Numbered from the stretch's first letter, positions 34,299 through 59,141 are shown. The stretch: 64,000 nt of DNA from an uncultured Pseudomonadales bacterium (GCA_964607285.1 CAZSJW010000005.1:9349-73348); one strand, 5' to 3'. The notes: generated by a model not told the origin, from the letters alone. A program made the numbers and translations.

Positions 34299-34951
34299 AC
34301 ACACAGTCAGTCATTGCCCAAGCACTTGTCGACATCGGTGCAGTCGGATTTGCCGTTGAGTCGCCAATAACTTTCAAATCTGGCATAGTGTCCCCTATTT
34401 ACATTGATAACCGTACATTCCCTGCACATCCCACCGAGTGGAAACTAGTTGTGCAAGGTTTTTCAAAGTTAATCACTGACAAGAAACTCAAGTACGACAT
34501 GATTGCAGGCATTGAAACAGCAGGTATTCCCCACAGTGCAGCTCTTGGATTAACCCTTATGAAGCCTTCAGTGTTTGTGCGAAAAACTGCCAAAGATCAT
34601 GGAACAAAAAAATTGGTTGAAGGTGGTTCGGTTGTAAGCAAAACAGTACTGCTTGTAGAAGATCACGTTTCTACTGGGCTTTCCAGCCTAGCAGGAGTTG
34701 CAGCACTCCGTGACTCTGGCGCAGTAGTTACTGACTGCCTATCTATCACAAGCTTCGAAATGCAAGAGGCCACTGAACAATTTGCTACTGCAAATGTAGA
34801 ACTGCATACATTGACAACAATTACCCATATAGTCCAGGCAGCAGTAACTTCCAAAGTGATTTCCTTATCAGATGCTACAATAATCAAAGAGTGGCTAGCA
34901 GATCCACATGGCTGGTTTGCCAAACGCTCAAAAAAGTCAGGCAATCTATGA
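34295..34951 (+). CDS. pyrE: orotate phosphoribosyltransferase-like type I PRTase
   Basis: PRPP-binding motif VLLVEDHVSTGLSS. ATGA overlap with the pyrD stop (ATG 34295-97, TGA 34296-98). The ORF track begins at an upstream TTG at 34271. Confidence 0.6.
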   Translation: MNTQSVIAQALVDIGAVGFAVESPITFKSGIVSPIYIDNRTFPAHPTEWKLVVQGFSKLITDKKLKYDMIAGIETAGIPHSAALGLTLMKPSVFVRKTAKDHGTKKLVEGGSVVSKTVLLVEDHVSTGLSSLAGVAALRDSGAVVTDCLSITSFEMQEATEQFATANVELHTLTTITHIVQAAVTSKVISLSDATIIKEWLADPHGWFAKRSKKSGNL

Positions 34952-36399
34952 TGCAACCGAACGACGTATATACAGCTGTATACAAAAACAACAATCTGTT
35001 CGGCCTCGAAAAAGCATCTAAAACTGATCTCTTCCATCCCAAACATCGCCGACAGAACTCAATCGCAGTGGTGGGTGGCGCACTAGGCGATGAAGGCAAG
35101 GGACGCCTAACTGACGAGCTTACCGCTCAATTTCTAAAAAAACATAAAAAAGTCATCCACTATCGTGATAACGGTGGATCGAACGCTGGACATACGGTTT
35201 CAGTCGGGAAAACCAAAATTGCGTTACACCAACTGGGATCGGGCATTCTACAACCAGGCTGTGTGGTGATACTCGGGAAAGAAATGGTGTTACACCCCAC
35301 TGATCTTGTTTCTGAGATCGAAGCAGTTGCAGCAGTTTCTCCTAAAAAAAACTTGCCCTCTGAACTACAAATAGATGAACAGGCATTCCTTTGCTTGGAT
35401 GTACATCGTGCATTTGAACAAGTACTTAAACAACACTCAACTGGCAGCTCTGGGGCAACAGGACGAGGCATAGCACCAGCGTATGCTGACGTACTATATC
35501 GGCATCCTCTTCGAGTGAGAGATTTGTTCGCTCGAAACTGGCAAGATCTGCTGCGCACCCATTACGAACTGTACAATCGGCTTGTGCAAGGCTTTGGCCA
35601 GAACCTTGCAGACATTTCAGTCCCACAGTTTATTGGGCAATCAATTGTAGTGGGAACAATAGAGAACCAAATTCAGCGACTGAAAACAGCAAAACTAATA
35701 CTAAAACCATACGTACAGAATGTGCGCATTTCACTCGATCAACTTTGGCGTTCAGACTGCCCCTTTGTCTTCGAGAAAGCACAAGCACTTGGTCTGGATA
35801 AACGATGGGGAGTATACCCAGATGTAACAGCGTCTAATTGTGGATTTGATGGCATTTTCTCTTCTACTGAAGGCGTGGTAGACCATCAAGACATTGCTGT
35901 CAGGGCGGCTGCTATCAAAGCTACTTATACCTCCAGTGTTGGTTCTCGCAAACTGCCCTCAATCATGGACGAAGCACTTGCGCATCGAATTCGCGAGGAC
36001 GCTAATGAATACGGTGCTACAACTAAACGGCCCCGAGATATCGTCCACATCGATATCCCCATGCTTTCCTACCTACTTGAAACTGGACGTGTTGAGTACC
36101 TGCTGCTCACACACCTTGATATTGCTTACCCAGACGTTCCAATACGCGTGTGCACAGAGTATAAAATCGGGACTCTCACGGTTCCATATCGCCCAGATCA
36201 AGCTTATCTGTCGCTAGTTGAACCTGTGTATATTGAAGTGCCTTCTTGGGACGGTGTAGCTGCACAGAACGCAACATCTCCCGCCGAACTTCCCCTGGCT
36301 GCCATACAGTATGTCGCTTTCCTCACCCAGTGTCTGGGAGTACCACCACTGTGGGCAACTACTGGTCCAAAACGTCACCAGACAGTGCGATGGTTTTAA
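34948..36399 (+). CDS. purA: adenylosuccinate synthetase
   Basis: P-loop IAVVGGALGDEGKGRLTDEL, LHQLGSGIL and the GTP/IMP-loop TGRGIAPAYAD. ATGA overlap with the pyrE stop. It has a ~35-aa N-terminal extension before the P-loop. Confidence 0.85.
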   Translation: MMQPNDVYTAVYKNNNLFGLEKASKTDLFHPKHRRQNSIAVVGGALGDEGKGRLTDELTAQFLKKHKKVIHYRDNGGSNAGHTVSVGKTKIALHQLGSGILQPGCVVILGKEMVLHPTDLVSEIEAVAAVSPKKNLPSELQIDEQAFLCLDVHRAFEQVLKQHSTGSSGATGRGIAPAYADVLYRHPLRVRDLFARNWQDLLRTHYELYNRLVQGFGQNLADISVPQFIGQSIVVGTIENQIQRLKTAKLILKPYVQNVRISLDQLWRSDCPFVFEKAQALGLDKRWGVYPDVTASNCGFDGIFSSTEGVVDHQDIAVRAAAIKATYTSSVGSRKLPSIMDEALAHRIREDANEYGATTKRPRDIVHIDIPMLSYLLETGRVEYLLLTHLDIAYPDVPIRVCTEYKIGTLTVPYRPDQAYLSLVEPVYIEVPSWDGVAAQNATSPAELPLAAIQYVAFLTQCLGVPPLWATTGPKRHQTVRWF

Positions 36400-37409: not shown

Positions 37410-39269
37410 CTACTGTAAAGGAACAGTGATTGTATGATAGCCATGGTATTTTTTTGCTTCAAGGTAAGCAAGACTCGTGTGCAACGTGTATGCAGCTGCA
37501 TTCAGTTCTGAAGGCTGCTGGGTGAAACTATCTGTAAATATTAAAAACTTAATCTTTCCTTCTTTTGGTGTTATATAGAGTCGGATGCTATTTCCAATAT
37601 TCACGGTTATTTTCTCAAGAAGACTATCCTTTTTTTCTTTGTATGCTAACTCAAAAGTCATGTAATCACTTAATACTGAAAAATCCATAACACCCATATT
37701 CTTAAACCTTTTGGTTACACCATCCTGCTTAAAGCCAGTAATCATTGAAAAAACGCCAGCAATTTTGCTATACACAGTTTCACTTAAAATAGTGTCACTG
37801 ACCTCGGCAAAAGGGTTATCGAACTGACTAGGCTGCAGTATGTCTTCGTGCGTTCCCTCACTTGGGTGTCGCCACGGCCAATGTTCATACACATCTGCCA
37901 GAGTCAGAGGCATGCGAAGCACGGGTGAAATGGGTAGCCCAAAAGTGTTGATTGTTAAGGTAAGATAAATGACGCCATTTTCTGTAACCTGAACACTGCA
38001 TCTTTCATGATTATAGCTTTCTGCTTCAAGATCTACGCCTTTAATTTTTTCCCGAAGCTGGATGTACATTTCTTCGAGAGATAGAGGTCTGTCTAGGGAT
38101 TTCGGGACTGTAGCCATACTGTCACGCAGCATTTGCATTCCTGCCTCTTTGGCATTTGAACGGGAACCGATTACACCTGCCATTGCGTATCGCACCATCG
38201 CTTTCTCATCTGAATTCCTCAGGTTATTCTTAACTTTACTGAGTACATCATCAATATAATTTGAACCAAACACATGATCCTTAATAATTTCTGTTATACG
38301 TGGAATATCCAATCGAGGAAAAACACTATCAGAGTACAACTCAAAATCGTATATGGCACAAAACTCGGGAAAGTTTTTTCTCATGCCTTCAAAAAACCAA
38401 CTATCTCCAAGCGTAAACATGAAATTTACTGGATCTTTACTCAAGTAATCCATACTTTCATAATCTGTAAAAATGACATCACCATTCCGATTTTTAAACG
38501 CATTATGTCCGTCAATTTCAAAAAATGCATGTGAAAACATATATGCATCAGTTAAAAACGGTAAAATTTTTTTTATTTGCTTTAGCAACTCTTTTCTTGA
38601 TACATTTCTCTTACCATCATCTCTTATGACTGCGGAACACTCTGCCACATCATACCGATATTCCATCCATGGCTGATACTGTAGAATCTTATAAATTCTG
38701 GCAAACTGGGGCTGGCCAAAGTGTAAGTATGATTGGGTCCACAATCTTTCTGCATAGTGCTTTTGCAGATCTACACTCGTGCTGTCTACACCCCCACCTA
38801 TATCAATGGCACCTGAGTTTCTCACAAATGGTCCATCAACACCAAACCCACGCTGTTCTCTTCCCTCGTAGTGCACTAAACCAGTGCCTTGCACACTGTA
38901 CTGCCCAAACAAGTATGCACGAGCGGCATTGTTAGTTAATTGTGAAGTCCTCCAACCATAGCCAAAAATCCCACCCGAATATTGCGTCGTCTCACCTCCA
39001 ACACTCAAATGAGGGACTCCATCAGTTTCACCAACTAAGTTCAACTCCTGCATAACATCCAGTAATCCAAACTCTCTGCCATCGCACTCAAATGAAGCAG
39101 TCTGGAACTGGGATTCCTCAAAAGGAATGCCCAACATAGCAGCAACAGGCCCTTCACTTCCTCCTGGTGAAAAAAATCTAGCAATTTTCAGCTTAGAATC
39201 CAGTGGTTCTGTTTCAAGTGCTCTCGTTCTTTCACTTCTGAAACTATGATCAACGCTGCCTTCATTCAT
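37410..39269 (-). CDS. large hypothetical protein (619 aa), no recognisable domain
   Basis: Long ORF rich in Gly/aromatic residues in the N-terminal third (FGYGWRTSQ..., GAIDIGGGVDSTS). Nothing matches a family I can name. Confidence 0.6.
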   Translation of the reverse strand: MNEGSVDHSFRSERTRALETEPLDSKLKIARFFSPGGSEGPVAAMLGIPFEESQFQTASFECDGREFGLLDVMQELNLVGETDGVPHLSVGGETTQYSGGIFGYGWRTSQLTNNAARAYLFGQYSVQGTGLVHYEGREQRGFGVDGPFVRNSGAIDIGGGVDSTSVDLQKHYAERLWTQSYLHFGQPQFARIYKILQYQPWMEYRYDVAECSAVIRDDGKRNVSRKELLKQIKKILPFLTDAYMFSHAFFEIDGHNAFKNRNGDVIFTDYESMDYLSKDPVNFMFTLGDSWFFEGMRKNFPEFCAIYDFELYSDSVFPRLDIPRITEIIKDHVFGSNYIDDVLSKVKNNLRNSDEKAMVRYAMAGVIGSRSNAKEAGMQMLRDSMATVPKSLDRPLSLEEMYIQLREKIKGVDLEAESYNHERCSVQVTENGVIYLTLTINTFGLPISPVLRMPLTLADVYEHWPWRHPSEGTHEDILQPSQFDNPFAEVSDTILSETVYSKIAGVFSMITGFKQDGVTKRFKNMGVMDFSVLSDYMTFELAYKEKKDSLLEKITVNIGNSIRLYITPKEGKIKFLIFTDSFTQQPSELNAAAYTLHTSLAYLEAKKYHGYHTITVPLQ

Positions 39270-47942: not shown

Positions 47943-48039
47943 TGTACTGTGGTTTCTGTAAATTTCTACTCATGCTTGCTAAGCTTTGTCAGCACGGTAT
48001 ACTCAAGGTGTATCACATGTATCTTCCTACAAGGACCTT

Positions 48040-49335
48040 ATGCCAACTATTTCCAAAATAATCGGTCGAGAAATCTATGACTCGCGTGGCGGGCCAACTG
48101 TTGAAGTTGACCTAACCCTCAGTGATGGTTCTTTCGGTCGGGCTTCCGTACCTTCGGGTGCTTCCACAGGTGCCTATGAAGCAGTTGAACTGCGTGATGG
48201 AGATACAGGTAGACTAGAAGGAAAAGGTGTTCGTACAGCCGTAGAAAATGTAAGTGTTACGCTGCAAAGCAAACTAGTGGGCACTGAAGCCGAGCAGTCA
48301 GTAGTAGACGCCCAAATGATCGAACTGGATGGCACCCCAAACAAGGGCAAACTTGGTGCGAATGCAATTCTTGGCGTTTCAATGGCACTCAGCAAAGCAG
48401 TGGCGCAATCTCGCAAACAACCACTGTGGGAGTACTTTAGCAGTCTTTCCCAGACTGCACCAAAGCAGTGGACTATGCCCGTACCCATGATGAACTTGAT
48501 GAACGGCGGGAGACACGCCACCAAATCTGCTGACTTCCAAGAGTTTATGATTATGCCTGTAGGTGGTACTAGCTTTGCTCACGGATTGGAAATGGGTGCT
48601 ACTGTTTTCATGAAACTTAAAAAAATCCTCCATGAGGCTGGCCATGCAACAACGGTAGGAGATGAGGGTGGATTTGCACCCAGCCTGGGTACAAACCAAG
48701 CAGTGCTCGATATTCTAGTACAAGCTGTCGAGCAATCAGGGTACACACTAGGAACTGACATTGTGTTTGCACTCGATGTAGCAGCCAGTGAGCTTTATAA
48801 AGATGGTAAGTATGAACTAGCTAGCGAACACCGTACACTCAGTGCTGTTGAGCTGATTGATGTCTATGCTGATTGGATAAAGAGATACCCAATAGTTTCC
48901 ATTGAAGATGGACTAGACCAAGATGCATGGAGTGATTATCAGGTATTGACCGAACGCTTAGGGAACACCACCCAAATCATGGGTGATGACTTCTTTGTGA
49001 CAAACGTAGAGCGTCTGCAGCGTGGTATTACTGAAAAATCTGCCAACTCTATTCTCATAAAACTAAACCAGATTGGTACCGTCACAGAGACTGTGGCGAC
49101 AATTGACCTTGCACGCCAAAATGGCTTTACCGCGATTGTCTCTCACCGTAGTGGAGAAACTGAGGATACGACAATTGCAGATTTTGTGGTTGGACTTGGA
49201 ACAGGACAGATAAAGACTGGCTCGCTATCTCGGTCGGAGCGGATGGCTAAGTACAACCAACTTCTACGCATTGAAGAAACCCTGGGTTCTTCTGCAGTAT
49301 ATCTCGGTATGGAGACTTTCCACTCCCGAAAATAA
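48040..49335 (+). CDS. eno: enolase (phosphopyruvate hydratase)
   Basis: IIGREIYDSRGGPTVEVDL N-terminus and SHRSGETEDTTIADF (active-site loop). The tracked ORF begins at 47986. The likely start is the Met at 48040 (MPTISKIIGREI). Stop is TAA at 49333-35. Confidence 0.9.
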   Translation: MPTISKIIGREIYDSRGGPTVEVDLTLSDGSFGRASVPSGASTGAYEAVELRDGDTGRLEGKGVRTAVENVSVTLQSKLVGTEAEQSVVDAQMIELDGTPNKGKLGANAILGVSMALSKAVAQSRKQPLWEYFSSLSQTAPKQWTMPVPMMNLMNGGRHATKSADFQEFMIMPVGGTSFAHGLEMGATVFMKLKKILHEAGHATTVGDEGGFAPSLGTNQAVLDILVQAVEQSGYTLGTDIVFALDVAASELYKDGKYELASEHRTLSAVELIDVYADWIKRYPIVSIEDGLDQDAWSDYQVLTERLGNTTQIMGDDFFVTNVERLQRGITEKSANSILIKLNQIGTVTETVATIDLARQNGFTAIVSHRSGETEDTTIADFVVGLGTGQIKTGSLSRSERMAKYNQLLRIEETLGSSAVYLGMETFHSRK

Positions 49336-49336
49336 C

Positions 49337-49353
49337 AAGACAGTTACTGTCTT
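49337..49353. terminator. short perfect hairpin (AAGACAG-TTA-CTGTCTT) between convergent genes, overlapping the stop codon of the minus-strand gene
   Basis: A 7-bp inverted repeat 2 nt after the eno stop. The stop of the 1104-aa minus-strand gene lies within its 3' arm. Confidence 0.4.
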
Positions 49354-52300
49354 ACCTGCCTTGCTGTTTGGGCGGCTTCGGTTTGTCCCGCTTATCTGCT
49401 GCCTCCCTGATTCTGTCCGCTGCACGCTTTTCATCTTGCCGTTGTTTAAGCTGCCTCTCAACTGCATCCTGACGTTCTTTTCTATCTGCTTCAGCTACAG
49501 CTCTATCCGCTGCCTCTTTCCGCTTTTTCTGCTCGTCTAGTTCCCGTTGTTTTTCTCTCTGTTTTTCCTCCAAAGCCTCACGTACCTTTTGCTTTTTTCT
49601 TTCCTCTAGATCTATAGCATCCTGACGTTCCTTTGCTTTGCGCCTCTCTTCCGCAGCCTCTGCTTCACGCCTGGCTTGTTCACGTGCTTCTGCTGCTACA
49701 ACTATTGCAATGGCTTCTTCTGCTGCCCGTCTAGCTTGGTTTGCCAAACTCTCTGCAGATGCCGCCTTGGTGATGACACTCTCTACGAAACTGACTGCAG
49801 CTCCTCGATTAGGCATCGGCGGCAATGCATCTGTCGCTGCATTCATGTATGAATTTCCTGCTCCTTTTGCCCTATGGTCGTTGACTTTATTTTCTGCTTC
49901 TCTAATTGCCGATCTTGCCGAACCTATGGCACTATCAGCTCTATCTAATAACTGCTCATACTCTCTTTTATCCTCAGCAAGATACTCCAACACTTGGCGC
50001 ACTTGCTGTCTTTCTAATCTTTCGTACGCATCAATCGTGTTCTGTAGCTCAGATGCAAGCTGCCTATCTTCAAAACGATTCAGCCGCTGCTCTGAGTTTT
50101 GGAGCTCTGTGAGCTGTCCTTTCATTCGCCTATCTGCCTCCATTGTCCGTATAGAAACAATGGCATCCTCTTCTGCTGCAACTTCTCTTGAAGTATTCTG
50201 AACTATTCTTACAGCATCTGATTTAGCAGCTTCTAACTCCGAGTACAACGATTTTATTTCAGAAATCTGCTGATTTTTCTCTTGCTTTGCTACTATGGCA
50301 ATTCGACTTGCCTCGTTGGCTAAGGAGTTTGCTGTAATAAATATTTTGCTTACGCCTTTTTCTCTCGCCTCTGTAAGTAGCCTTCTAGCTTCATCCAGTT
50401 GTGCATCTACTTCAGGACCAACCATCCTATTTAGGAACGGATCAGATCCAGCAAGTGTTGCAGATGAAACATCTCGTTCTGCAGAGCTAATAGCAGATGC
50501 GTATCCATCACGTGCTGACTCGACAAGCTTATGGTGACTTTGTAGTTGGTCCATCAGTGACTCTGCTGTAACGAAAGATCGCTCCATCTTCTTTATTGTT
50601 GCTTCAGCTGTAGTAAATGCTTGCTGCTCCATTGAATTTTCTCTACCTGCTTGGCTGGCAAGATCGTTCTCGGATGCAGGATCGTCAAACACTTCTTGCA
50701 GCAGTTTACTGGCATTTGCGAAATGAGATTCAAATCCCCTATAGTTCTCAGTATGGTAGTTCATTTCTAAATCGCTCCACAGTGCCGCAATTGTTGTGGA
50801 ATGAAGCGATTGCGCCAGAGATACACTCGAGCTTAATCTTTGCAATGCAGCTTCATTTCGCTGCCTGAGCTCTCTAATCGTCTGCATTTCCTGAACACAA
50901 GCATCTGCAGTATCCTTGATGATATTGACTGACTCTAGTGCTGTATCCCACTGTCCACTTCTACCGAGCTGCACTGCCTGATTGATGTAGCGTGCAACAG
51001 CCTCTTTAGTTTCCGCAATGTGAGACTCACTAAACCCTTGGCCTGTAAACTCAAGTAGTGCAGTAAACTTTGCATCACGGTACTGTAGAGCACGTTCTAA
51101 CTCTCTGCAGTACTTTTCAGTTGTCTCCAGCTGCTCTGAAGCTCTATCTATCAAAGCACTTACTTCTGAGCTTGGAGCGTGCTGCCTGAGTGCATCTGAT
51201 ATTTCCTCAAGTTGCTTCAGCACAGGTGAAAGAAACGCGGCAGGCTCACTGATGTCCTCAGACCAGTCTTGAAACCTTTGGGGTTGTTCTGTTTGTGCAG
51301 CTTGTGCAGCAGTAATCAGGTTGGGAAACTTGGTAAATATACTCTTTTCTTCTTCAAGTTGCTGGATTATTTTTGCGAGTAAATCACTGCCAAGCAGCAA
51401 TTTTTTATTTTCAGTGCCAAAACATTCTGATGCTTCTTTCAGTTTTTGATAAATGTCTGAGAGCAATTCATCTGCAGGGCCAATATACTCTGGGTGCTTT
51501 GTATGTAACCTGCTTACCCAATCCGTTGTAGTTGCTACCATAGATTTTACCAAGTCAAAACGCGCATTTGCTTGATCAATCTGATCCTTAATCACATTAA
51601 ACTGGCCGATGGTTTTTTCAATCTCATCCAGAATATTTTGCAGGAAATTATAGAGATCTGTCTGCTCAATGCGAACTGCATCAATCGCAGCTCGTTTGCT
51701 AAAGTAGCCTACTTTAGTCGTTTCAATATAGCTGTACGCTTTATTGATAATACTGACAATACTCAAGAAGTTTGTATACCTATTTTGTACAGAAACTGCT
51801 TCCTTAGGATAGCTTTCCGTATATATTTCCTGTAGTAACCTGTATGCCTTAGAAGGCGTATCCCACTCCATGTGTTTTACAAATTTTTCATAAAGTGGTG
51901 CAATTTTTTTATTTAGTTCAGAAATTTGAGCAAAGACGGCCCTTCTGCGGGTAAACTCAGCTTTCCCATACAGTGCCATTGTAACTAGTCCAATAATTCC
52001 CAAAGCTCCCCCCACCCACGACACTACTTTCTCTGGTCGTACGCCTGTTTCAGGAACACCCACAGAAGTCTCTAGCTCAGCCTCCGATTCTTGCTCAGCC
52101 ATGCTCGCTTGTATTTCTTCTGCAAAATACTCCAGCGCAAACCTGACAGCAGCTTGGTTGTTTTCCACACTACCCCTGCCTGCTTGACCATCGATCATCC
52201 GCTCTGCCAAATCCAGCTCGTGCTGTTCTAAGGCCGACCCCCAAGTATTACCAGCATCACAGGCAACACCAGTCACGTTCCCCTGATCAAAAGCAATAAG

Positions 52301-52666
52301 ACAGGCAACTACGTCTGGTTTAATATCACCACTGCTGTCTGTAAAACCAGTATCAATAAGTTCTTTTGTAAGAGCAGCTTCTGCTGACAGAATTTGTCCT
52401 ACATCAGACCTGCTGACTCCGTCTGTAGTGAATACTACAACCTGCACACCAAGATCAGTTAGTTTTTCGATCGGTACTTTGAGTTTAGAGAAAAAATCAC
52501 TACCTAAAGTTCTTGCATCATCAATCAAGTAAAACTCTCCACCTGGTCTCTGCTGCTCCTGCCCACCCCGCTGAGCAATCATCTGGTTTTCAGATTCGCG
52601 TGAACCAAAGAACTCTGTTGCTGGAAGGTTGTCCATAAAACCAAAATAATCTTCAGATGAGTGCAT
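49352..52666 (-). CDS. giant coiled-coil protein with an N-terminal TPM-like domain, one TM helix and a K/E/R-rich C-terminal tail
   Basis: An 1104-aa protein. The N-terminal ~180 aa (GVQVVVFTTDGVSRSDVGQILSAEAAL...DVVACLIAFDQGNVTGVACDAGNTWGSALEQ) fit the TPM (TLP18.3/Psb32/MOLO-1) pattern as I recall it, followed by a TM segment (VVSWVGGALGIIGLVTMALYG). About 800 aa of heptad-like helical sequence follow, ending in ~100 aa of REQARREAEAAEERRKAKERQD... charge repeats. Confidence 0.6.
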   Translation of the reverse strand: MHSSEDYFGFMDNLPATEFFGSRESENQMIAQRGGQEQQRPGGEFYLIDDARTLGSDFFSKLKVPIEKLTDLGVQVVVFTTDGVSRSDVGQILSAEAALTKELIDTGFTDSSGDIKPDVVACLIAFDQGNVTGVACDAGNTWGSALEQHELDLAERMIDGQAGRGSVENNQAAVRFALEYFAEEIQASMAEQESEAELETSVGVPETGVRPEKVVSWVGGALGIIGLVTMALYGKAEFTRRRAVFAQISELNKKIAPLYEKFVKHMEWDTPSKAYRLLQEIYTESYPKEAVSVQNRYTNFLSIVSIINKAYSYIETTKVGYFSKRAAIDAVRIEQTDLYNFLQNILDEIEKTIGQFNVIKDQIDQANARFDLVKSMVATTTDWVSRLHTKHPEYIGPADELLSDIYQKLKEASECFGTENKKLLLGSDLLAKIIQQLEEEKSIFTKFPNLITAAQAAQTEQPQRFQDWSEDISEPAAFLSPVLKQLEEISDALRQHAPSSEVSALIDRASEQLETTEKYCRELERALQYRDAKFTALLEFTGQGFSESHIAETKEAVARYINQAVQLGRSGQWDTALESVNIIKDTADACVQEMQTIRELRQRNEAALQRLSSSVSLAQSLHSTTIAALWSDLEMNYHTENYRGFESHFANASKLLQEVFDDPASENDLASQAGRENSMEQQAFTTAEATIKKMERSFVTAESLMDQLQSHHKLVESARDGYASAISSAERDVSSATLAGSDPFLNRMVGPEVDAQLDEARRLLTEAREKGVSKIFITANSLANEASRIAIVAKQEKNQQISEIKSLYSELEAAKSDAVRIVQNTSREVAAEEDAIVSIRTMEADRRMKGQLTELQNSEQRLNRFEDRQLASELQNTIDAYERLERQQVRQVLEYLAEDKREYEQLLDRADSAIGSARSAIREAENKVNDHRAKGAGNSYMNAATDALPPMPNRGAAVSFVESVITKAASAESLANQARRAAEEAIAIVVAAEAREQARREAEAAEERRKAKERQDAIDLEERKKQKVREALEEKQREKQRELDEQKKRKEAADRAVAEADRKERQDAVERQLKQRQDEKRAADRIREAADKRDKPKPPKQQGR

Positions 52667-52853
52667 GAGTTTTTCCTATTCAAACAATACGTACTACTCT
52701 GTATGAATGTAGTGCTGCATATATCATACCAAAATTCACACTACAAAACGATAGAAATAGGATGAAATATAGGCTGATCGGGGACAATGCTGTACAACAA
52801 GCTACTAGTTCTAGTATAGTTGATCTCAACATTCCTAAACACCTCATGCATCT

Positions 52854-54989
52854 ATGGTTTCCGAAGATACTTCATTCATAAACAATCAATCAGATGCAGC
52901 ATATGAAATACATGTGCATGGCAGGCCTGCTGCTTTCTTAGATCAAGCAAACAATTCAGTACAACACCTGCTTGAAAAGGACTTTAAACGAAGAGAATTT
53001 TTAGTACAAGGTTTAGAGCGTTGGCTACAAAAAAAATATGGCAATGAAACGCTAAAGCTCAAACCAATTATGGAGCTGTTTGCAGAACTTCAAAACTACT
53101 ACAATAGTTACAAAGTACTTCTCTCCCCAGAAAGAATTGTACCTCAGCAGTACCAAGAGTTTCAAGGTTTTCAGACTGGTGTGACGATTCAATCACAAGG
53201 AAAATCAAGAAAAGAGAGGAATATAGGAAACGTTGAACTTAATGACCTTCACTTTAGAATCGGAGTCTTAGCAATTGAAATTGGTGAGGATGCCTCAAAC
53301 AATATTAAACTTGCTAACTGTCAAGTTGATCATACCGTATGGCGATTGTATAACTTACTATACCCTGACAAACTCTATGCTGAACTTGCGTCCCGAGATA
53401 CGTCTGGTACCAATACAAGTCTTGAGTTAGCCAGACGGTTCTCTCGTGCTGTCTTTCCTCGAGAATTTATTGCTATGCTCAATGCAATTGAACTCGGCAA
53501 TCATGACTTTACCGTTCATGCACTCTTTGATGACAATCCAAATATTTCATCATCTGCTGGAGATATCAAAAAAGACTACAATTTGAGCGAAATTCCAATC
53601 ACTGCAGTTATCAACCAGATTGATGGTAAAGCTATCTCTCAGCCACCACTTTCTACAAAACCAGACTCCGATGGCACATTCAGCACGATGAACATCTATG
53701 AAGTCCTTGCATTCCATCTCCATGCCATGGCATGGAAAGAGGTTTTTTCCAAACAGCCCGAAGGTCCAAAGATAAAAAAAGCACTACTTAACCAAATCAA
53801 ATCTCTTCATTATTCGTTGTATGGCAACGAGTCAAACCAGCAATCAGTCTTACAGCGAGCCTTATCTACACCCGCAATTCAAAACGAGTTTACACCCAAA
53901 CAAACTCAAGACGCTGTGGGATACGTACAGAAAGTACAACTTAACTTCCTGTTTAACATACTTGATCCTCAGGACCCTGAAGTGGCACGAACGCTTGCGG
54001 AACTCGGTATTCATCACACCGTAAGTGACAAGCAAAGAATTTTACATCACGAAAATCTACTTGATGAACTGAAACTTGATGTCTCTAAACTACTTATTGA
54101 TTTTCATGATCGACTCAAAGAGGCCAAGCCTGAACATGCTAAGAAGAAGCTAGTTAAGCAGGCTGAGAAGCTATTGGCTGAATTAGGGAGCGACAAACTG
54201 ACGATCAGTAAACAACTAGATGAAATGCTACCAACTATTGAAAAACTACTACAAGAATCTTTTTCTATTACAGATAGAAAATTACTTGCCCACATTTTCT
54301 TTGCTACAGATCAGTCAGAAAAAGCTCTGAAACTTCTGATAGATACTAGTTTTAACACCGTTGATTTTGGAGCTCCAATCGCTGTGCAAGTTAACCGATG
54401 CCTGAATATACTCGTGGAATCTAGCCAAAATCTGCCTGTCGATGTACTTGATTTTGCAAAACGAATTGCTGTAAGAATCAAGCAACTGCCTACTGAAAAT
54501 AAACCCACCATTGAGGAAGTTGATAGTATCGTCTCGAAAATTACACTAAGATTAGGCATGTTATCACTCGACGGTGAGATACTACCTATCACGAACTCAT
54601 TACTTGAGTCGCTCGATCTTACTGAAATACAGAAGCTACGCACTATTCTCTCTACCATGGAGTGGTATGCCAAATCAGTTGAACCCAGCCAAGTCTGCTC
54701 AATACTGGCAGATGTAACAAAACGGTACTCAGAACTTAACCACCCTGACTTTTTACTAGACACAGATCCAGAAGGAGATCCAGATAATCATCGTGAAGCA
54801 AGACTTTTTATGAATATTGCCGAACATTACTTTGACATTGGCCAGTTTGCTGAAGCCAAACAAGTTGCAGATTTTGCCTTACGTGCAGTCAATCCAGCGG
54901 TAAAAATTCAAGGCGTGTCTTTTTCTCACCTGATAGCGAAGCTCAACAGGATATCAGCTGAGAGCGAGCAGCGACAGGAAACAAATTAA
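52854..54989 (+). CDS. large hypothetical protein (711 aa), no recognisable domain
   Basis: Long ORF transcribed divergently from the TPM coiled-coil gene. Helical and Leu/Lys/Glu-rich. Confidence 0.6.
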   Translation: MVSEDTSFINNQSDAAYEIHVHGRPAAFLDQANNSVQHLLEKDFKRREFLVQGLERWLQKKYGNETLKLKPIMELFAELQNYYNSYKVLLSPERIVPQQYQEFQGFQTGVTIQSQGKSRKERNIGNVELNDLHFRIGVLAIEIGEDASNNIKLANCQVDHTVWRLYNLLYPDKLYAELASRDTSGTNTSLELARRFSRAVFPREFIAMLNAIELGNHDFTVHALFDDNPNISSSAGDIKKDYNLSEIPITAVINQIDGKAISQPPLSTKPDSDGTFSTMNIYEVLAFHLHAMAWKEVFSKQPEGPKIKKALLNQIKSLHYSLYGNESNQQSVLQRALSTPAIQNEFTPKQTQDAVGYVQKVQLNFLFNILDPQDPEVARTLAELGIHHTVSDKQRILHHENLLDELKLDVSKLLIDFHDRLKEAKPEHAKKKLVKQAEKLLAELGSDKLTISKQLDEMLPTIEKLLQESFSITDRKLLAHIFFATDQSEKALKLLIDTSFNTVDFGAPIAVQVNRCLNILVESSQNLPVDVLDFAKRIAVRIKQLPTENKPTIEEVDSIVSKITLRLGMLSLDGEILPITNSLLESLDLTEIQKLRTILSTMEWYAKSVEPSQVCSILADVTKRYSELNHPDFLLDTDPEGDPDNHREARLFMNIAEHYFDIGQFAEAKQVADFALRAVNPAVKIQGVSFSHLIAKLNRISAESEQRQETN

Positions 54990-55001: not shown

Positions 55002-55565
55002 TTACTTCAGAGATACATTACTTATGTTTCCAAGTAGTAATTTTGCAACACTTGCAACTGCTTGCTGGATGTTTCGGATCTTGTCAAAAGAATACACATC
55101 TGCACTTACTCTTTCTGACATTGCCAGTAACGTATTTGGATGTTCTAGTTCCATATGTGTGACAATATTTTCTGCTCGCCGCTCTACATCCGGAAACTCA
55201 TTTCTCATCTCATCCAGAGTACCTGCTGCTCTAGCTTCTGCTAAAAGCCACACACAGTTCGCGTCTCGAGTTTCGCCATAGGCGGTTCTAAAAAATGCTG
55301 CCACCTGTTCATACCCTACTGGTGCTACTTTACCCGCATCGATTGCCAGGGCTGCTTCCAAATTCATAACAGTTGAACCATTGATTAGTTCTTCAGCCGT
55401 AAGTCGCAAACCCTCGGGTTTTTCTGCATCATTAGAAATTTCTGATGTAGAACTAAATGGCTCTCGATCTGCCATGATGTCAACCACTTTTAAGCGATTT
55501 AATCGGTTATCGCGTTCTGGTGCGGCTGCACCAGCAGGAGCTTTCTCTCCTGGTCTATTTGTCAT
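55002..55565 (-). CDS. hypothetical protein (187 aa)
   Basis: ORF convergent with the 711-aa gene. Ala/Gly-rich N-terminus, no motif. Confidence 0.5.
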   Translation of the reverse strand: MTNRPGEKAPAGAAAPERDNRLNRLKVVDIMADREPFSSTSEISNDAEKPEGLRLTAEELINGSTVMNLEAALAIDAGKVAPVGYEQVAAFFRTAYGETRDANCVWLLAEARAAGTLDEMRNEFPDVERRAENIVTHMELEHPNTLLAMSERVSADVYSFDKIRNIQQAVASVAKLLLGNISNVSLK

Positions 55566-55766: not shown

Positions 55767-58700
55767 GTGCAGTTCTGCCACCATATTGCTACACTCAATG
55801 TAGCCTATATGGAAACTACCACAGAAGAGTATACACAAAAGATTGCAAGCATAGCGTCAGATGAGCTGTCAAAAAGAACAGTGGGTGTTGCATTTATTGC
55901 CTTGGAACAAGGAGGCGTCAAATTAACCGATGAGTCGTTGCAGTTACCACCTGAACTGCAAGCAAGGATCACAAACTTGCTAGGAATTACAGAATTGATT
56001 ACAGAGCTTCGTCACTCCTTGTTTGAACAAGCCTTAAAAAGCGAAATTACCGATCAAAGTAAGTTATATCCCGATCCTGTAGCAATACCAAATCAAGAAA
56101 CATTCGTACAAGACCTTTTGGGGAAAAGTCCGAAATTGTTGGAAAAATTGGCTGAAATCACGGCAAAAGCAAGCGTTTGTCTTACGGTATTACAAGATAC
56201 ACCTCAACATCCAAAAGTATCTGCAATCAAAACTCAAATGGCTGCATGGAAAAGCACTATTGATGCAGTTGCAAGCTCCTTATGTGCAAATGAAACAACT
56301 GAACAGAACTTCTACACGCTCGTTCAAAATAATATTTCTCTGCTAAGAACTGCATCAGAGAAACAGCTGAATCCCACAAACCCACACGGTAAAAAAAATC
56401 GCGGGGAAAGTTATGCTGAGAAATTTACTAGATTACTGCAGATTCCAAGAGCGGTTGATCTCATAGCAGCAGGCACGGATGCTGGGCGTGCTAAAGAATT
56501 TTCAGACAAGCTTATTGATGAGTATTTAGAGACTGCATTTACATTGAACGCTGTCAAAGTACTACACAGAATTCAAAGCCCGCTTACGCTAGAGGGCAAA
56601 GTTAGTAAGTTATTTTCTTGTTTGCGCCAGCACGAGAGTGACCCTATATACTTAGAAATTATTCAAAATAATGGTATAGCAGTTGAGTTTGCAGCGTTAG
56701 GAAATAAGATCAAAAATATCAAGAATGCTGGGTTACTCTACAAAGATGAAAAGCAACAAATTCAAGATCTGAATGCAGCTTTTAAAGAAAAATGTACAAC
56801 AATTGTCGCGACATACTTTGAAAATAACCCAATAGATGAAGAAGTCATAGATCTTGTCTCCACAAAACAAAAACTCCGCGCATTTTTTTTACAATCTGAA
56901 GCACTACGAGCCTCGGGCTCAGATTCTGAAGAGTCAAAAGGCAAGATAACTAAACTTGATGAACAAATGCAAGAGCTGATGATACAAATTGCCAATAAAA
57001 TTGCCCGCATTTTCCCTCATAAAACCTCAACCAATCTCATTGACGTTATAGAAAATTCTGATGCAATCTGTGCTGGAAAGGTAAACATTTTGCTTGCGGT
57101 CTCTAAATACTTAGACCTAAATGCCCGAGCAAACTCGGTGAGAGAAATGATGATTCCAAGCAACAGTGGTCATGTCTGTTTAGAATGCGACCTACCAAGT
57201 GGCAAAAAATTAGTGATTGATGCTGATAGCTCTAATAAAAATAGGCTAGAATCTGCATCCACTACAGATCTTATTGCGTTGATTCGCAAAAACTCACCAG
57301 GTATCACCGATCAGGAACTAAAGTCTGCATTGCGGTATTATGACTTGGCAATACCAAACGCAAGTTCTATCCCATCCAATGCACGTATCGTGCTGTACAC
57401 TACTGAAGAAACAGATATTATCGCCGCAGATGCAGACCAAATAAAGAAATTCAAAAATACTCCCTACCACTTCATCAGACAAAATCCTTACTCAGGAATA
57501 AAGGAAGTCTGGAAAGCAAGCATTCCTTATCCTCACCATATTACGTTGCCTGATAGAGATGGCTACTTTCACATAAACTCTTCGTTCACAAATAATTCAG
57601 GACATTTTCTCGCTAGAGGTTATACAGAACTCGGGTTATATCTGTTTAAAAAACACCTAGCTATGAATCCTTACGATGTTAAAGCATATAAAGGAATTGG
57701 GGGACTGTTACCAAAAACAGAGATGCATACTTTCTTTGCCCAGGTAAAAAAAGAGCAGCCATCACTGTATTGGGACGGAATCAGTGTAGAACACGCAGTA
57801 CTGTGTGCTTATAACGCAATGTTTGATACCGCACTAGAAATCTTTGAACAAACAAAAGCTAAAAGCCCACTCCAATACTACAACAACTTATGGCAACTCT
57901 CTCTAGCAATACGAAATACTATGGGAACAGATGAGTATCAAAATATTACTAAACGAAAATCCAAAGTTAGAAGTTTGCTGCAAGAAGCAAAAAATGCAAA
58001 TCCCACACTTTTTTTCTCAAACTTGTCTAATCCAGAAGAACTTCTTCGTCTGTATGATGCTGAAGCTGATAAAGAGATCGCTATCTTAGAAGAATTGAAA
58101 AAAAATAACCCAAATGGTTTTTGGGATGAAGAACACACTATTCAGTTTTTTCAGAAGCTTCTGAAGCTGTATGCACAAAAGGGATCGAAAGACATTTCAC
58201 AACGTAGTACGGCAGAAAAGATGGCGGAGGAAATAAAAAATAAGCTAAGAGCTTGGTACGATAAAGGTATTTGCAACTATGTTTCTGAACTATACTTACA
58301 CGGGAGTATAAGAGACCCCGACCAAGCATTGTTAGTTCTTCAAGAGTCGAAAACTCATTCGCCTGCTACTTTTTTTAGCAAACCAGAAAATTGCAATCTT
58401 ATGATCCGTATCTATGAAGCACAGAAGGACTTTGCAGGTGCGATCGCTTTTTGTAATGAAGTAAAACAGCAAAATCCAAACTTATTTTGGACCTATCAAT
58501 ACACACCAATTCATGAAGTTTTAGCGGGACTACAAGTAAAAACTGGACTGATTGATACAGCGATCCATCTCTTTGAGGAAGCAAAATCAAAGAACAAACA
58601 TTTCTGGACTGCTTCATACAATGGAGGTTATGCTCAACTTGTAAAGTTATACGCTGCAACTCAGCGAATCCCTGAGGCACTTGCCTTATGTACAGAAGCG

Positions 58701-59141
58701 CAAACTAAAGATCCCAAGTTTATGAGTTCAGAAAGTGGGTATGGAGGGTATGTTCAGCTAGCAGAACTATTCGATTTGAGTGGTCGCACTAGTGATGCTA
58801 TCGAACTACTGCTAGAAGCTCAGCACACAGACACTCGGTTCTGGCAAAGAGAATACTTAAACCCAAACGTGTTTAAATTAGTTGAGTATTATACAAAGAC
58901 AAATCAACTAGCTGAAGCTATAGATTTCCTTGAACAGCTCAAAGTAAAAAATCCTAACTACTTAGGTACCGACTACTATACGCTGTGTGAACTTTACGAA
59001 AAAAACGGTCAACACGCTGAAGCAATACAATGTAAAGCAGACTTACTTCGCACATATGAGGCACTCAGCCTATCAAATCCCAATGTATTCAAGCAATATG
59101 CGGCAAAAGTTAATAGATTGAAGGCAATTGCCTTATCCTAA
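55767..59141 (+). CDS. very large repeat protein (1124 aa) with a C-terminal array of ~36-40-aa TPR/Sel1-like repeats and a possible transglutaminase-like Cys-His-Asp core
   Basis: The C-terminal ~450 aa contain at least 8 repeats of the form A(I/L)xLxxEAxxxNPxxFW (AIELLLEAQHTDTRFW, ALALCTEAQTKDPKFM, AIHLFEEAKSKNKHFW, AIAFCNEVKQQNPNLFW, LLVLQESKTHSPATFF, and others). Mid-protein, ICAGKVNILLAVSKYLDLNARAN...SGHVCLECDLPSGKKLVIDAD places a Cys, a His 43 residues later and an Asp 17 residues after that, as in transglutaminase-like cysteine proteases. An alternative start is the ATG at 55809. Confidence 0.6.
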   Translation: MQFCHHIATLNVAYMETTTEEYTQKIASIASDELSKRTVGVAFIALEQGGVKLTDESLQLPPELQARITNLLGITELITELRHSLFEQALKSEITDQSKLYPDPVAIPNQETFVQDLLGKSPKLLEKLAEITAKASVCLTVLQDTPQHPKVSAIKTQMAAWKSTIDAVASSLCANETTEQNFYTLVQNNISLLRTASEKQLNPTNPHGKKNRGESYAEKFTRLLQIPRAVDLIAAGTDAGRAKEFSDKLIDEYLETAFTLNAVKVLHRIQSPLTLEGKVSKLFSCLRQHESDPIYLEIIQNNGIAVEFAALGNKIKNIKNAGLLYKDEKQQIQDLNAAFKEKCTTIVATYFENNPIDEEVIDLVSTKQKLRAFFLQSEALRASGSDSEESKGKITKLDEQMQELMIQIANKIARIFPHKTSTNLIDVIENSDAICAGKVNILLAVSKYLDLNARANSVREMMIPSNSGHVCLECDLPSGKKLVIDADSSNKNRLESASTTDLIALIRKNSPGITDQELKSALRYYDLAIPNASSIPSNARIVLYTTEETDIIAADADQIKKFKNTPYHFIRQNPYSGIKEVWKASIPYPHHITLPDRDGYFHINSSFTNNSGHFLARGYTELGLYLFKKHLAMNPYDVKAYKGIGGLLPKTEMHTFFAQVKKEQPSLYWDGISVEHAVLCAYNAMFDTALEIFEQTKAKSPLQYYNNLWQLSLAIRNTMGTDEYQNITKRKSKVRSLLQEAKNANPTLFFSNLSNPEELLRLYDAEADKEIAILEELKKNNPNGFWDEEHTIQFFQKLLKLYAQKGSKDISQRSTAEKMAEEIKNKLRAWYDKGICNYVSELYLHGSIRDPDQALLVLQESKTHSPATFFSKPENCNLMIRIYEAQKDFAGAIAFCNEVKQQNPNLFWTYQYTPIHEVLAGLQVKTGLIDTAIHLFEEAKSKNKHFWTASYNGGYAQLVKLYAATQRIPEALALCTEAQTKDPKFMSSESGYGGYVQLAELFDLSGRTSDAIELLLEAQHTDTRFWQREYLNPNVFKLVEYYTKTNQLAEAIDFLEQLKVKNPNYLGTDYYTLCELYEKNGQHAEAIQCKADLLRTYEALSLSNPNVFKQYAAKVNRLKAIALS

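What the first reader, a model, noticed from the sequence alone, without database searches (positions are those of the whole stretch)
49352..52666. 1104-aa protein combining a TPM-like N-terminal domain, a TM helix, ~800 aa of coiled coil and a 100-aa K/E/R charge tail
TPM-domain proteins are normally ~200-300 aa. Here the TPM-like region and its adjacent TM helix are followed by an enormous helical rod and an extremely charged repetitive tail (AEERRKAKERQDAIDLEERKKQKVREALEEKQREKQREL...). Such tails can bind nucleic acids or make long ionic spacers. The gene is convergent with eno and shares a hairpin overlapping both stops. It is divergent from a cluster of further large orphan genes.
Basis: partly seen in the sequence, partly recalled or inferred. 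Interest (0 to 1): 0.5.

Follow-up and report, generated by a model that had tools for sequence, protein, structure and literature searches.

The report
Giant TPM-domain membrane rod protein
This gene from an uncultured Patescibacteria (candidate phyla radiation, CPR) bacterium encodes a 1104-residue protein with a small TPM fold, one membrane helix, a long rod of stacked helical bundles that resembles the division scaffold EzrA, and a highly charged helical tail; it belongs to an unnamed family of about 100 sequence clusters.

Summary

**What each part is**
- **Membrane helix (214-232):** present in every full-length relative, always with positive charge on its C-terminal side.
- **Tail (1001-1095):** an ER/K-type stretch that is 62-65% charged.

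**Family**
- The protein is not an orphan. An exhaustive search finds 101 cluster representatives, most about 1000-1100 aa and collinear. The named members and contexts seen are Patescibacteria.
- 47 of 64 full-length members carry a signal peptide and a Ser/Gly/Arg-rich tail. That makes them YgcG/Psb32-like proteins with about 750 residues of rod inserted.
- The query's clade has lost the signal peptide, has a weaker membrane helix and has an ER/K-rich end.
- No gene neighbourhood is conserved.

**Reading:** a transmembrane scaffold or tether. The function is inferred, not shown.

The parts
49352..52666 (-). Complete CDS, 1104 aa plus stop codon (TAA at 49352-49354)
   Evidence: ORF list and translation. 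Collinear homologues reach E 2.6e-141.
52674..52677 (-). AGGA Shine-Dalgarno, 7 nt upstream of the ATG. An in-frame TGA lies 5 codons upstream, so no N-terminal extension or signal peptide is possible.
   Evidence: Read directly from the sequence.
52541..52666 (-). Residues 1-42: acidic, hydrophilic leader predicted to be disordered. It is not a signal peptide.
   Evidence: AF2 pLDDT 33-36. The maximum 11-residue hydropathy in the first 40 residues is 0.28, against at least 2.0 in signal-peptide-bearing relatives.
52097..52540 (-). Residues 43-190: diverged TPM-fold domain. Four strands (45-49, 75-81, 119-127, 130-138) are flanked by four main helices. The clade-conserved residues include D49, G73, C122, C136 and G139.
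52028..52096 (-). Residues 191-213: acidic, Pro/Thr/Glu-rich linker between the TPM domain and the membrane helix
   Evidence: Low pLDDT. Relatives have an equivalent P/T/Q-rich linker. Psb32 has the same kind of linker (10.1101/2025.05.08.652833).
51971..52027 (-). Residues 214-232: single transmembrane helix VVSWVGGALGIIGLVTMAL, rich in small-xxx-small motifs. The 15-residue flanking net charges are -1 (N-terminal side) and +3 (C-terminal side).
   Evidence: Kyte-Doolittle 2.04. The helix is conserved in position, and the C-terminal flank is positive in all 64 full-length relatives.
49667..51970 (-). Residues 233-1000: all-alpha rod of about 17-18 helices. By inference it forms about 6-7 head-to-tail helical bundles of about 100-120 aa each.
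49697..50989 (-). Residues 560-990: the most conserved core of the family. Most distant relatives align only here.
   Evidence: phmmer alignment ranges, conservation profile, and nearly invariant residues N604, W630, N641, D661, N677, Q682, Q800, D867, A917, A944.
50597..50704 (-). Residues 655-690: signature block, consensus (V/L)FDDPxxxxDLASxxxxxNSMxxQxF, lying in short helices and loops between two long helices
   Evidence: This is the highest column conservation in the family (mean top-residue frequency 0.57).
49796..49882 (-). Residues 929-957: conserved loop DxRAxGAGxSxLxxAxxxLPxxPxxG. It is flanked by helices with Ala/Ile at 3-4 spacing (913-924 and 968-985), an alanine-zipper-like hairpin.
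   Evidence: Alignment consensus and invariant columns A917, A924, G937, A944, A968, A975, A978, A982.
49382..49666 (-). Residues 1001-1095: ER/K-type charged helix, a candidate single alpha-helix spacer
   Evidence: The stretch is 62-65% charged and 10% hydrophobic. The i/i+3,4 opposite-charge score is 0.38-0.47, against 0.15 or less elsewhere in the protein. AF2 continues the helix 958-1054 with falling confidence. No a/d hydrophobic pattern is present.
49355..49381 (-). Residues 1096-1104: short basic Pro/Lys end, PKPPKQQGR
   Evidence: Translation. Similar basic ends occur in the two closest relatives, P0003 and P0004.
49337..49353 (.). 7-bp hairpin (AAGACAG-TTA-CTGTCTT) between the convergent stop codons. 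On the minus strand it is followed by GTTATTTT, so it is a plausible weak intrinsic terminator for this gene.
   Evidence: Sequence read on both strands. The terminator scan did not call it, and the local fold is not exceptional.

Best explanation
The gene encodes a diverged member of an unnamed family of about 1000-1100-residue single-pass membrane proteins. The named members and genomic contexts seen so far are Patescibacteria.

**Family ground plan**
- The N-terminal part is a YgcG/Psb32-type module: signal peptide, extracytoplasmic TPM domain, Pro/Thr-rich linker and one transmembrane helix.
- About 750 residues of cytoplasmic all-alpha rod follow. The rod is built from head-to-tail helical bundles like the spectrin-like repeats of EzrA.
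- Next comes an Arg/Glu-rich helix, and the protein ends in a Ser/Gly/Arg low-complexity tail.

**Proposed mechanism (inferred)**
- The protein is a transmembrane scaffold or tether, not an enzyme.
- The TPM domain acts as a binding or assembly module for an envelope partner, as Psb32 does on photosystem II.
- The membrane helix anchors the protein and probably promotes self-association.
- The rod, with its conserved DDP...DLAS...NSM block and alanine-zipper hairpin, provides a long cytoplasmic platform for partners.
- In this protein the ER/K helix holds a short basic peptide about 10-14 nm beyond the rod.

**The query's clade**
This clade has lost the signal peptide, weakened the membrane helix and reduced the Ser/Gly tail. 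Which side of the membrane its TPM domain faces is therefore unresolved. I favour the family topology: acidic N-domain outside, exported as a signal-less N-tail, with the rod inside.
For: **Shown**
- The ORF and its start are secure.
- An exhaustive phmmer search finds 101 representatives (23 below 1e-30), most about 1000-1100 aa and collinear.
- 11 of 45 relatives hit PF04536 (best E 3.2e-12). Two of these, P0007 and P0014, lack a signal peptide and still score above the gathering cut-off.
- The family profile hits Psb32 (9i83) at E 1.6e-10 across the signal peptide, TPM domain and membrane helix.
- The query's N-domain scores 26.6 bits, E 4e-9, against an HMM built from the 43 strongest signal-peptide-bearing relatives. 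hhalign gives 99.6%.
- The membrane helix is conserved, and its C-terminal flank is positive in all 64 full-length members. 47 of the 64 have classical signal peptides.
- Ser/Gly/Arg tails are typical of the family. They recall the glycine-rich C-terminal extension reported for Psb32 homologues in non-photosynthetic bacteria. JGI labels one member YgcG.
- The ER/K character of the tail.
- The host is a Patescibacteria bacterium: MutS is 50-56% identical to Parcubacteria, Paceibacter and WWE3 sequences, and P0007 is MBU0975122.1, labelled Patescibacteria.

**Inferred**
- The scaffold role. It rests on Psb32's non-catalytic role in an assembly intermediate and on the proposal that TPM domains assist assembly of membrane-linked complexes (PMC11237479).
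Against: - The query has no signal peptide, and its N-domain gives no direct Pfam or PDB sequence hit. A profile built only from the signal-less clade also fails to hit TPM structures.
- Foldseek on the full-length model found nothing significant and did not return the TPM structures.
- The similarity to EzrA may be what any chain of three-helix bundles would give. EzrA's sequence match is insignificant (E 0.028), and PF06160 hit none of 45 members at E<=0.01.
- No gene neighbourhood is conserved in the window or in the ten contexts of relatives examined, so no partner is implied.
- The AF2 alignment has only 55 sequences, the membrane region is low-confidence, and I could not inspect the coordinates. 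The count of bundles comes from one-dimensional secondary structure only.
- No experiment exists on any member of the family.
Confidence: 0.55

Rival explanations
1. Relocated-domain variant. In the query's signal-less clade the whole protein stays on the cytoplasmic side, or the TPM-like domain is inside with the helix acting only as a weak or peripheral anchor. The TPM fold would then have been re-used as a cytoplasmic binding module at the membrane-proximal end of the rod.
For: 17 of 64 members, including the query and its nearest relatives, lack a signal peptide, and the query's start codon cannot be moved upstream. Their membrane helices are significantly less hydrophobic (median 1.89 against 2.54, p = 1.4e-4), and their tails have also changed. 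Exporting a folded domain of about 210 residues without a signal peptide is uncommon (general knowledge).
Against: The positive charge after the helix is kept in this clade (+2 to +5). The N-domain is very acidic (median net charge -19 against -11), which favours N-tail translocation. The Pro/Thr-rich linker is kept, as is a conserved Cys pair in adjacent strands (C122/C136) that could form an extracytoplasmic disulfide. A single 19-residue helix cannot leave both large domains on the same side of the membrane if it spans it.
Confidence: 0.25
2. EzrA analogue. The protein is a membrane-anchored spectrin-like regulator of the division ring or envelope synthesis in bacteria that lack EzrA. The TPM domain would report on or bind the outside of the cell.
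Confidence: 0.12
3. Enzyme on a stalk. The TPM domain is an extracytoplasmic acid phosphatase or nucleotidase, as reported for TLP18.3 and BA41/BA42, and the rest of the protein merely anchors or regulates it.
For: The closest structural neighbours (BA41, TLP18.3) have reported weak phosphatase or ATPase activity. An Asp (D49) at the end of strand 1 is invariant in the clade.
Against: The reported activities are low and disputed, and a non-enzymatic assembly role is now favoured. Conservation in this family is concentrated in the rod (residues 560-990), not in the TPM domain. Few polar residues in the N-domain are conserved family-wide.
Confidence: 0.08
4. YdjH-like partner of a PspA/ESCRT-III membrane-stress system.
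For: [quoted passage not shown]
Against: No pspA, band-7 or zinc-ribbon partner genes lie next to the gene in the window or in the ten contexts of relatives examined.
Confidence: 0.07
5. Generic coiled-coil, SMC-like or surface-fibril protein whose resemblance to TPM is due to chance.
For: The query has no direct Pfam hit. Weak SMC and coiled-coil hits appear in a few members.
Confidence: 0.02

Closest known systems
Psb32 / TLP18.3 / YgcG-type TPM membrane proteins (Pfam PF04536, COG1512)
   Different: About 750 residues of conserved helical rod and an Arg/Glu-rich helix are inserted between the membrane helix and the tail, making the protein three to five times longer. The query itself falls below the Pfam threshold, lacks the signal peptide, and has an ER/K tail in place of the Ser/Gly tail.
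Bacillus subtilis YdjH-type proteins (TPM domain plus 'low-complexity segment or long coiled coil', partners of PspA; PMC11237479)
   Same: The architectural theme is the same: a membrane-associated TPM domain followed by a long helical or low-complexity cytoplasmic part.
   Different: No pspA, band-7 or zinc-ribbon operon partners are present here. The rod here is a conserved, family-specific segmented domain with its own motifs, not generic coiled coil. No sequence comparison with YdjH itself was made.
EzrA (Firmicutes septation-ring regulator; PDB 4uy3, 4uxv; PMC4243239)
   Different: There is no detectable sequence homology. EzrA has essentially no extracellular domain, five repeats, a terminal four-helix bundle and a QNR patch. 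Here a TPM domain precedes the membrane helix, the rod is about 40% longer, and its conserved motifs are different.
ER/K single alpha-helix (SAH) domains, such as those in myosin VI/X and caldesmon (from general knowledge)
   Same: About 95 residues with over 60% E/K/R/D, dense i/i+4 opposite-charge pairs, almost no hydrophobic core positions, and a predicted helix.
   Different: This is a compositional analogy only. The AF2 confidence falls along the segment, no experiment exists, and only the query and its two nearest relatives have so long a stretch.

Membership tests
TPM domain (PF04536, TLP18.3/Psb32/MOLO-1) | Sequence match to the Pfam profile above the gathering score (22.1 bits) | tested here: not met
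   The query gives no hit even at E<=10, whether full-length or as residues 1-250 or 41-230. Relatives do: 11 of 45 hit PF04536 (best E 3.2e-12), including P0007 at 24.2 bits and P0014 at 25.2 bits.
TPM domain (PF04536, TLP18.3/Psb32/MOLO-1) | Fold: a central four-stranded beta-sheet flanked by four amphiphilic helices (10.1101/2024.10.28.620569) | tested here: met
TPM domain (PF04536, TLP18.3/Psb32/MOLO-1) | Homology that can be traced to a solved TPM protein | tested here: met
   The family profile A1 hits Psb32 (9i83_3) at E 1.6e-10 and 8c7i at E 1e-6. The query scores E 4e-9 against an HMM of the 43 strongest signal-peptide-bearing relatives, and hhalign gives 99.6%. The link is transitive: a profile of the signal-less clade alone finds no TPM structure.
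YgcG/Psb32-type membrane architecture | N-terminal signal peptide that places the TPM domain outside the cytoplasm | tested here: not met
   The query's first 42 residues are hydrophilic and acidic, and an in-frame stop lies 5 codons upstream of the ATG. 47 of 64 full-length relatives have a classical signal peptide.
YgcG/Psb32-type membrane architecture | Single membrane helix after the TPM domain, with a cytoplasmic (positive) C-terminal flank | tested here: met
   Residues 214-232 score Kyte-Doolittle 2.04, with flank charges -1 and +3. The same holds in all 64 full-length relatives. This is a hydropathy prediction only.
YgcG/Psb32-type membrane architecture | Gly/Ser-rich low-complexity C-terminal tail | tested here: not met
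   The last 40 residues of the query are 3% S/G/T, against a median of 62% in signal-peptide-bearing relatives. The query ends in an ER/K stretch followed by PKPPKQQGR.
EzrA (PF06160) | Sequence match to the EzrA family | tested here: not met
   PF06160 hit none of 45 members at E<=0.01. The family profile against EzrA 4uxv gives E 0.028, with no stretch that passes on its own.
EzrA (PF06160) | Membrane helix followed by head-to-tail triple-helix bundles of about 100 aa | tested here: inconclusive
EzrA (PF06160) | QNR patch, C-terminal four-helix bundle and FtsZ binding | not tested
   No alignment to EzrA's C-terminus was obtained. Binding cannot be tested with these tools.
PspA-associated YdjH-type TPM proteins | Operon with pspA, band-7 or zinc-ribbon genes | tested here: not met
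   None of these families appears among the neighbours in the window or in the contexts of relatives examined (L002-L010 and one place without DNA; L001 partly).
SMC / classical two-stranded coiled-coil proteins | ATPase head domains, and long uninterrupted heptad repeats | tested here: not met
   No SMC_N or ABC head domains are present. Heptad a/d occupancy is notable only around residues 310-470. The helices are interrupted every 10-97 residues.
ER/K single alpha-helix | Over 60% charged residues with alternating E and K/R at i/i+4, no hydrophobic seam, and a monomeric stable helix | tested here: inconclusive
   Composition and charge pattern are met. The helix is predicted, but with pLDDT falling from 78 to below 50 across residues 1001-1054. 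Monomeric stability cannot be tested with these tools.

The most novel reading that the evidence does not exclude
These Patescibacteria carry their own transmembrane cytoskeletal scaffold, unrelated in sequence to EzrA or spectrin but built on the same principle. An extracellular TPM domain would physically couple the scaffold to events on the cell surface, such as envelope assembly or contact with the host cell on which such episymbionts live. In the query's clade the TPM domain would either cross the membrane without a signal peptide or have been moved to the cytoplasmic side. The second case would be an unusual change of compartment for a fold otherwise known only outside the cytoplasm or in the thylakoid lumen.
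Probability: 0.15. Interest if true: 0.7.

Novelty: new variant of a known kind. Interest (0 to 1): 0.5.

Why it matters
- **TPM function.** TPM domains are widespread, and their function is still debated (phosphatase or assembly factor). This family ties one covalently, through the membrane, to a conserved 750-residue cytoplasmic rod. That argues for a structural or coupling role and offers a system in which binding partners on both sides could be fished out.
- **CPR biology.** Patescibacteria have tiny genomes and lack many known cytoskeletal and envelope factors. A conserved gene of about 3.3 kb is therefore a large investment for them. A membrane-anchored rod resembling EzrA is a concrete candidate for organising their envelope or division.
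- **A natural topology experiment.** The signal-less clade lets one ask how, or whether, a 200-residue folded domain is exported without a signal peptide.
- **Method.** The word-index homologue search returned only the query itself, because the charged tail swamped the index, while an exhaustive HMMER search found about 100 relatives. Orphan status based on fast searches should be treated with caution for proteins with low-complexity tails.

Tried and rejected
1. The word-index homologue search with the full protein returned only the query itself. With the family alignment it returned only SMC proteins pulled in by the charged tail. I rejected the orphan reading after the exhaustive search.
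2. The genome-contig scan found one locus only (L001, labelled Pseudomonadales, probably mis-binned). Wider alignments had no stretch conserved enough to search with. The metagenome-contig scan found nothing.
3. Single-sequence AF2 of residues 1-250 gave pLDDT 42, and its Foldseek hits were meaningless.
5. A profile of the signal-less clade's N-domains against PDB sequences gave only spurious hits.
6. PADLOC and PHROGs gave no hits for the gene or its orphan neighbours, so I dropped the defence-system and phage readings.
7. Conserved neighbourhood: the divergent 711-aa orphan is unrelated to the 638-aa orphan at the same position in L002. Neighbours in L001-L010 share nothing consistent.
8. 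No paralogue exists in the window or in any locus examined.
9. The internal repeat search gave only weak signals.
Full report
**1. The observation**

The ORF at 49352..52666 on the minus strand is 1104 codons long and starts at ATG. An AGGA lies 7 nt upstream of the ATG. An in-frame TGA lies 5 codons upstream, so the N-terminus cannot be extended.

The gene converges on enolase (47986-49335; TIGR01060 E 1e-181). It diverges from orphan genes of 711, 187 and 1124 aa.

A 7-bp hairpin (49337-49353) sits between the two stop codons. It overlaps this gene's stop by 2 nt and starts 2 nt after eno's stop. Only on the minus strand is it followed by a T-rich run (GTTATTTT), so it looks like a weak terminator for this gene and not a shared one. 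The terminator scan did not call it, and its fold is unexceptional.

Hydropathy shows one clear membrane segment at 214-232 (Kyte-Doolittle 2.04). The last 100 residues are 62-65% charged.

**2. Host**

The window is ordinary chromosome. It carries rpoD, dnaG, mutS, mutL, gdhA, trxB, argG, a purA-like gene and eno, mixed with many genes that match no family.

Its MutS is 50-56% identical to proteins that their sources call Patescibacteria group, Parcubacteria, Paceibacter, WWE3, Roizmanbacteria and Moraniibacteriota. The organism is therefore a member of the Patescibacteria (candidate phyla radiation, CPR).

**3. Not an orphan**

The fast word-index search returned only the query itself. An exhaustive phmmer search with residues 1-990 found 101 cluster representatives (72 below 1e-10, 23 below 1e-30). 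Most are 980-1130 aa and align collinearly; the shorter entries are fragments.

One relative is MBU0975122.1, a hypothetical protein of a Patescibacteria group bacterium. Another is labelled "uncharacterized membrane protein YgcG" by JGI. One contig is labelled Pseudomonadales, but it is a 7.6-kb MAG fragment with 42% GC and is probably mis-binned.

The contigs I could examine look like CPR genomes, and each holds a single copy.

**4. The N-terminal domain is a TPM domain**

The query itself has no Pfam, NCBIfam or PDB sequence hit in this region, even at E<=10. Four lines of evidence nonetheless agree.

- 11 of 45 relatives hit PF04536 (best E 3.2e-12). Two of them, P0007 and P0014, lack a signal peptide like the query and still score above the gathering threshold, at positions that align with query residues ~45-185.
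- The family profile hits Psb32 (Tll0404; 9i83) at E 1.6e-10. The alignment covers the signal peptide, TPM domain, linker and membrane helix.
- An HMM built from the 43 strongest signal-peptide-bearing relatives scores the query's N-domain at 26.6 bits, E 4e-9. hhalign between the two groups gives 99.6% probability, E 3e-24.

The four-strand, four-helix pattern is the published definition of the fold (10.1101/2024.10.28.620569).

A profile of the signal-less clade alone does not find TPM structures. The domain is therefore strongly diverged in sequence while keeping the fold.

**5. Family ground plan and the query's deviations**

All 64 full-length members have a hydrophobic helix at about residues 170-245, and the 15 residues after it carry net positive charge. 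This puts the C-terminal 800 residues in the cytoplasm.

47 of the 64 have a classical signal peptide, with a K/R n-region, a hydrophobic core and AQA-type cleavage sites. Most end with an Arg/Glu-rich stretch followed by a Ser/Gly/Arg low-complexity tail, for example ...SSSRSSSFGSSSRSSSMGSSRRR or ...GGGGSSSRSGF.

[quoted passage not shown] The difference is about 750 residues inserted after the membrane helix.

The query and 16 others lack the signal peptide. One of these, P0049, appears to be truncated within its signal peptide.
- Their membrane helices are less hydrophobic (median 1.89 against 2.54; Mann-Whitney p = 1.4e-4).
- Their tails are poorer in Ser/Gly/Thr (0.28 against 0.62; p = 0.003).
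- In the grouping (21 against 43 sequences, made with a stricter hydropathy cut-off) their N-domains are more acidic (median net charge -19 against -11).
- In the 16-sequence alignment of this clade, nearly all share two cysteines in adjacent strands, C122 and C136.

Only the query and its two nearest relatives (34% and 32% identical) end in a long ER/K stretch and a short basic Pro/Lys peptide.

**6. The "coiled coil"**

Heptad a/d occupancy is notable only around residues 310-470.

AF2 predicts, mostly at pLDDT above 90, about 18 helices of 10-97 residues separated by short loops. They include four of 56-66 residues: 325-390, 573-636, 684-739 and 867-928. Long helices alternating with pairs of shorter ones is what serial bundles look like when one helix runs from one bundle into the next. 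I infer about 6-7 bundles of about 100-120 residues, but I could not inspect coordinates.

Sequence methods see no relation to EzrA, and Foldseek found nothing significant. I therefore treat this as an architectural analogy, not homology.

The rod is not generic. Residues 560-990 are the best conserved part of the family. Three features stand out:
- a signature block at 655-690, (V/L)FDDPxxxxDLASxxxxxNSMxxQxF, in a loop-rich insert;
- a conserved FED motif at 865-867;
- a conserved loop at 929-957, DxRAxGAGxSxLxxAxxxLPxxPxxG, between two helices with Ala/Ile at 3-4 spacing.

No Pfam or NCBIfam model covers any of this.

**7. The tail**

Residues 1001-1095 have 62-65% charged residues and 10% hydrophobic residues. 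The i/i+3,4 opposite-charge score is 0.38-0.47, against 0.15 or less elsewhere in the protein. There is no a/d seam. AF2 continues the helix from 958 to 1054 with falling confidence.

This is the signature of an ER/K single alpha-helix (general knowledge). At 1.5 A per residue it would be a stiff spacer of about 10-14 nm. Nucleic-acid binding is not excluded, but nothing specific supports it.

**8. Context**

The neighbours differ in the window and in every context of a relative examined (L001-L010 and one place listed without DNA). They include eno, greA, ribosomal protein genes, thrS, a MerR-type regulator, an alpha/beta hydrolase, a histidine phosphatase, and many small orphans. The large divergent orphan in the window is unrelated to the one at the same position in L002. 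PADLOC and PHROGs give nothing. The gene appears to be a stand-alone unit, so context names no partner.

**9. Mechanism**

What is shown is the architecture, the TPM fold and the membership of a family. What is inferred is the role.

The literature has moved from "TPM phosphatase" towards a non-catalytic assembly role:
- Psb32 sits on a photosystem II assembly intermediate, with its TPM domain on the lumenal face and its helix in the membrane.

In this family the conservation is concentrated in the rod, not the TPM domain. I therefore read the protein as a transmembrane scaffold or tether. A TPM binding module sits at the outer face, a helix rich in small-xxx-small motifs anchors it, and a conserved cytoplasmic rod with specific interaction motifs extends inward. 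In the query, an ER/K spacer ending in a basic peptide follows.

For the query's signal-less clade the side on which the TPM domain sits is open.
- I favour the family topology: the positive flank after the helix is kept, the N-domain is very acidic, the linker is kept, and the Cys pair is conserved.
- I give about 25% to a relocated, cytoplasmic TPM domain.

The other rivals I rate lower, for the reasons listed under each: an EzrA-like division regulator, a true phosphatase, a PspA partner, and a generic coiled coil.

**10. Novelty and score**

The parts are known kinds: the TPM fold, a bitopic anchor, a spectrin/EzrA-like rod and an ER/K helix. TPM followed by a long helical region has been noted in passing in the literature.

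The new element is a conserved, unnamed family of about 1050-residue proteins, seen so far in CPR bacteria, with its own rod domain and motifs. Within it, the clade lacking a signal peptide is also new. I found no paper on it.

I rate it a new variant of a known kind, with interest 0.5. It is a solid, testable lead for the cell biology of CPR bacteria and for the function of TPM domains, but no mechanism has been demonstrated.

Noticed in passing
window 30623-32239 (+): The argininosuccinate synthase gene is 538 aa. ArgG covers residues 18-414, and an extra ~120-residue C-terminal part matches the C-terminal (MGS-like) domain of the carbamoyl-phosphate synthase large subunit (E 1e-14). This is an unusual fusion, and an arginine-biosynthesis gene is itself not typical of a reduced CPR genome.
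   Followed up: no
window 52854-54989 (+), 55002-55565 (-), 55767-59141 (+): The divergent neighbours are orphans. The 711-aa protein is a singleton cluster among 15 billion sequences. The 187-aa protein has no hits. The 1124-aa protein has only C-terminal TPR repeats (about residues 880-1100) after about 850 residues that match nothing. None hits PADLOC or PHROGs.
   Followed up: partly
window 10012-11910 (-), 12989-15619 (+), 18692-20272 (+), 37410-39269 (-): Four further large ORFs (632, 876, 526 and 619 aa) have no NCBIfam match at E<=1e-5. They are interleaved with housekeeping genes (dnaG, mutS, mutL).
   Followed up: no
window 34891-36399 (+): The PurA-like protein scores well below the equivalog cut-off (251 bits against 402) and carries an N-terminal extension of about 55 residues. 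It overlaps the preceding ORF, so it may be a divergent paralogue or have a mis-set start.
   Followed up: no
L001 6836-7369; L003 8178-8654; L005 8661-9131; L006 10846-11415; L007 8514-9083: NUDIX hydrolase genes lie within 1-3 kb of the family gene in three of the ten loci. A histidine-phosphatase (His_Phos_1) gene lies immediately downstream in L006 and L007, which hold the same protein. This may be chance, but both are phosphohydrolases next to a so-called TPM phosphatase.
   Followed up: no
L001 (CAZBTU010000054.1): The contig carrying the second-closest relative is deposited as 'uncultured Pseudomonadales bacterium'. It is a 7.6-kb MAG fragment with 42% GC and is probably a mis-binned CPR contig.
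   Followed up: partly
window 5049-6800 (+): A 583-aa protein whose only recognisable part is a J-domain at residues ~126-200. The rest matches nothing.
   Followed up: no
family-wide (P0020, P0029, P0034, P0039 and others): Many signal-peptide-bearing relatives have a cysteine within a few residues of the predicted cleavage site (for example ...AQDCPNV...AQNCGG) and exactly two cysteines in the N-domain. The signal-less clade instead has its two cysteines in strands 3 and 4. These look like two different disulfide solutions, or a lipobox-like feature.
   Followed up: no
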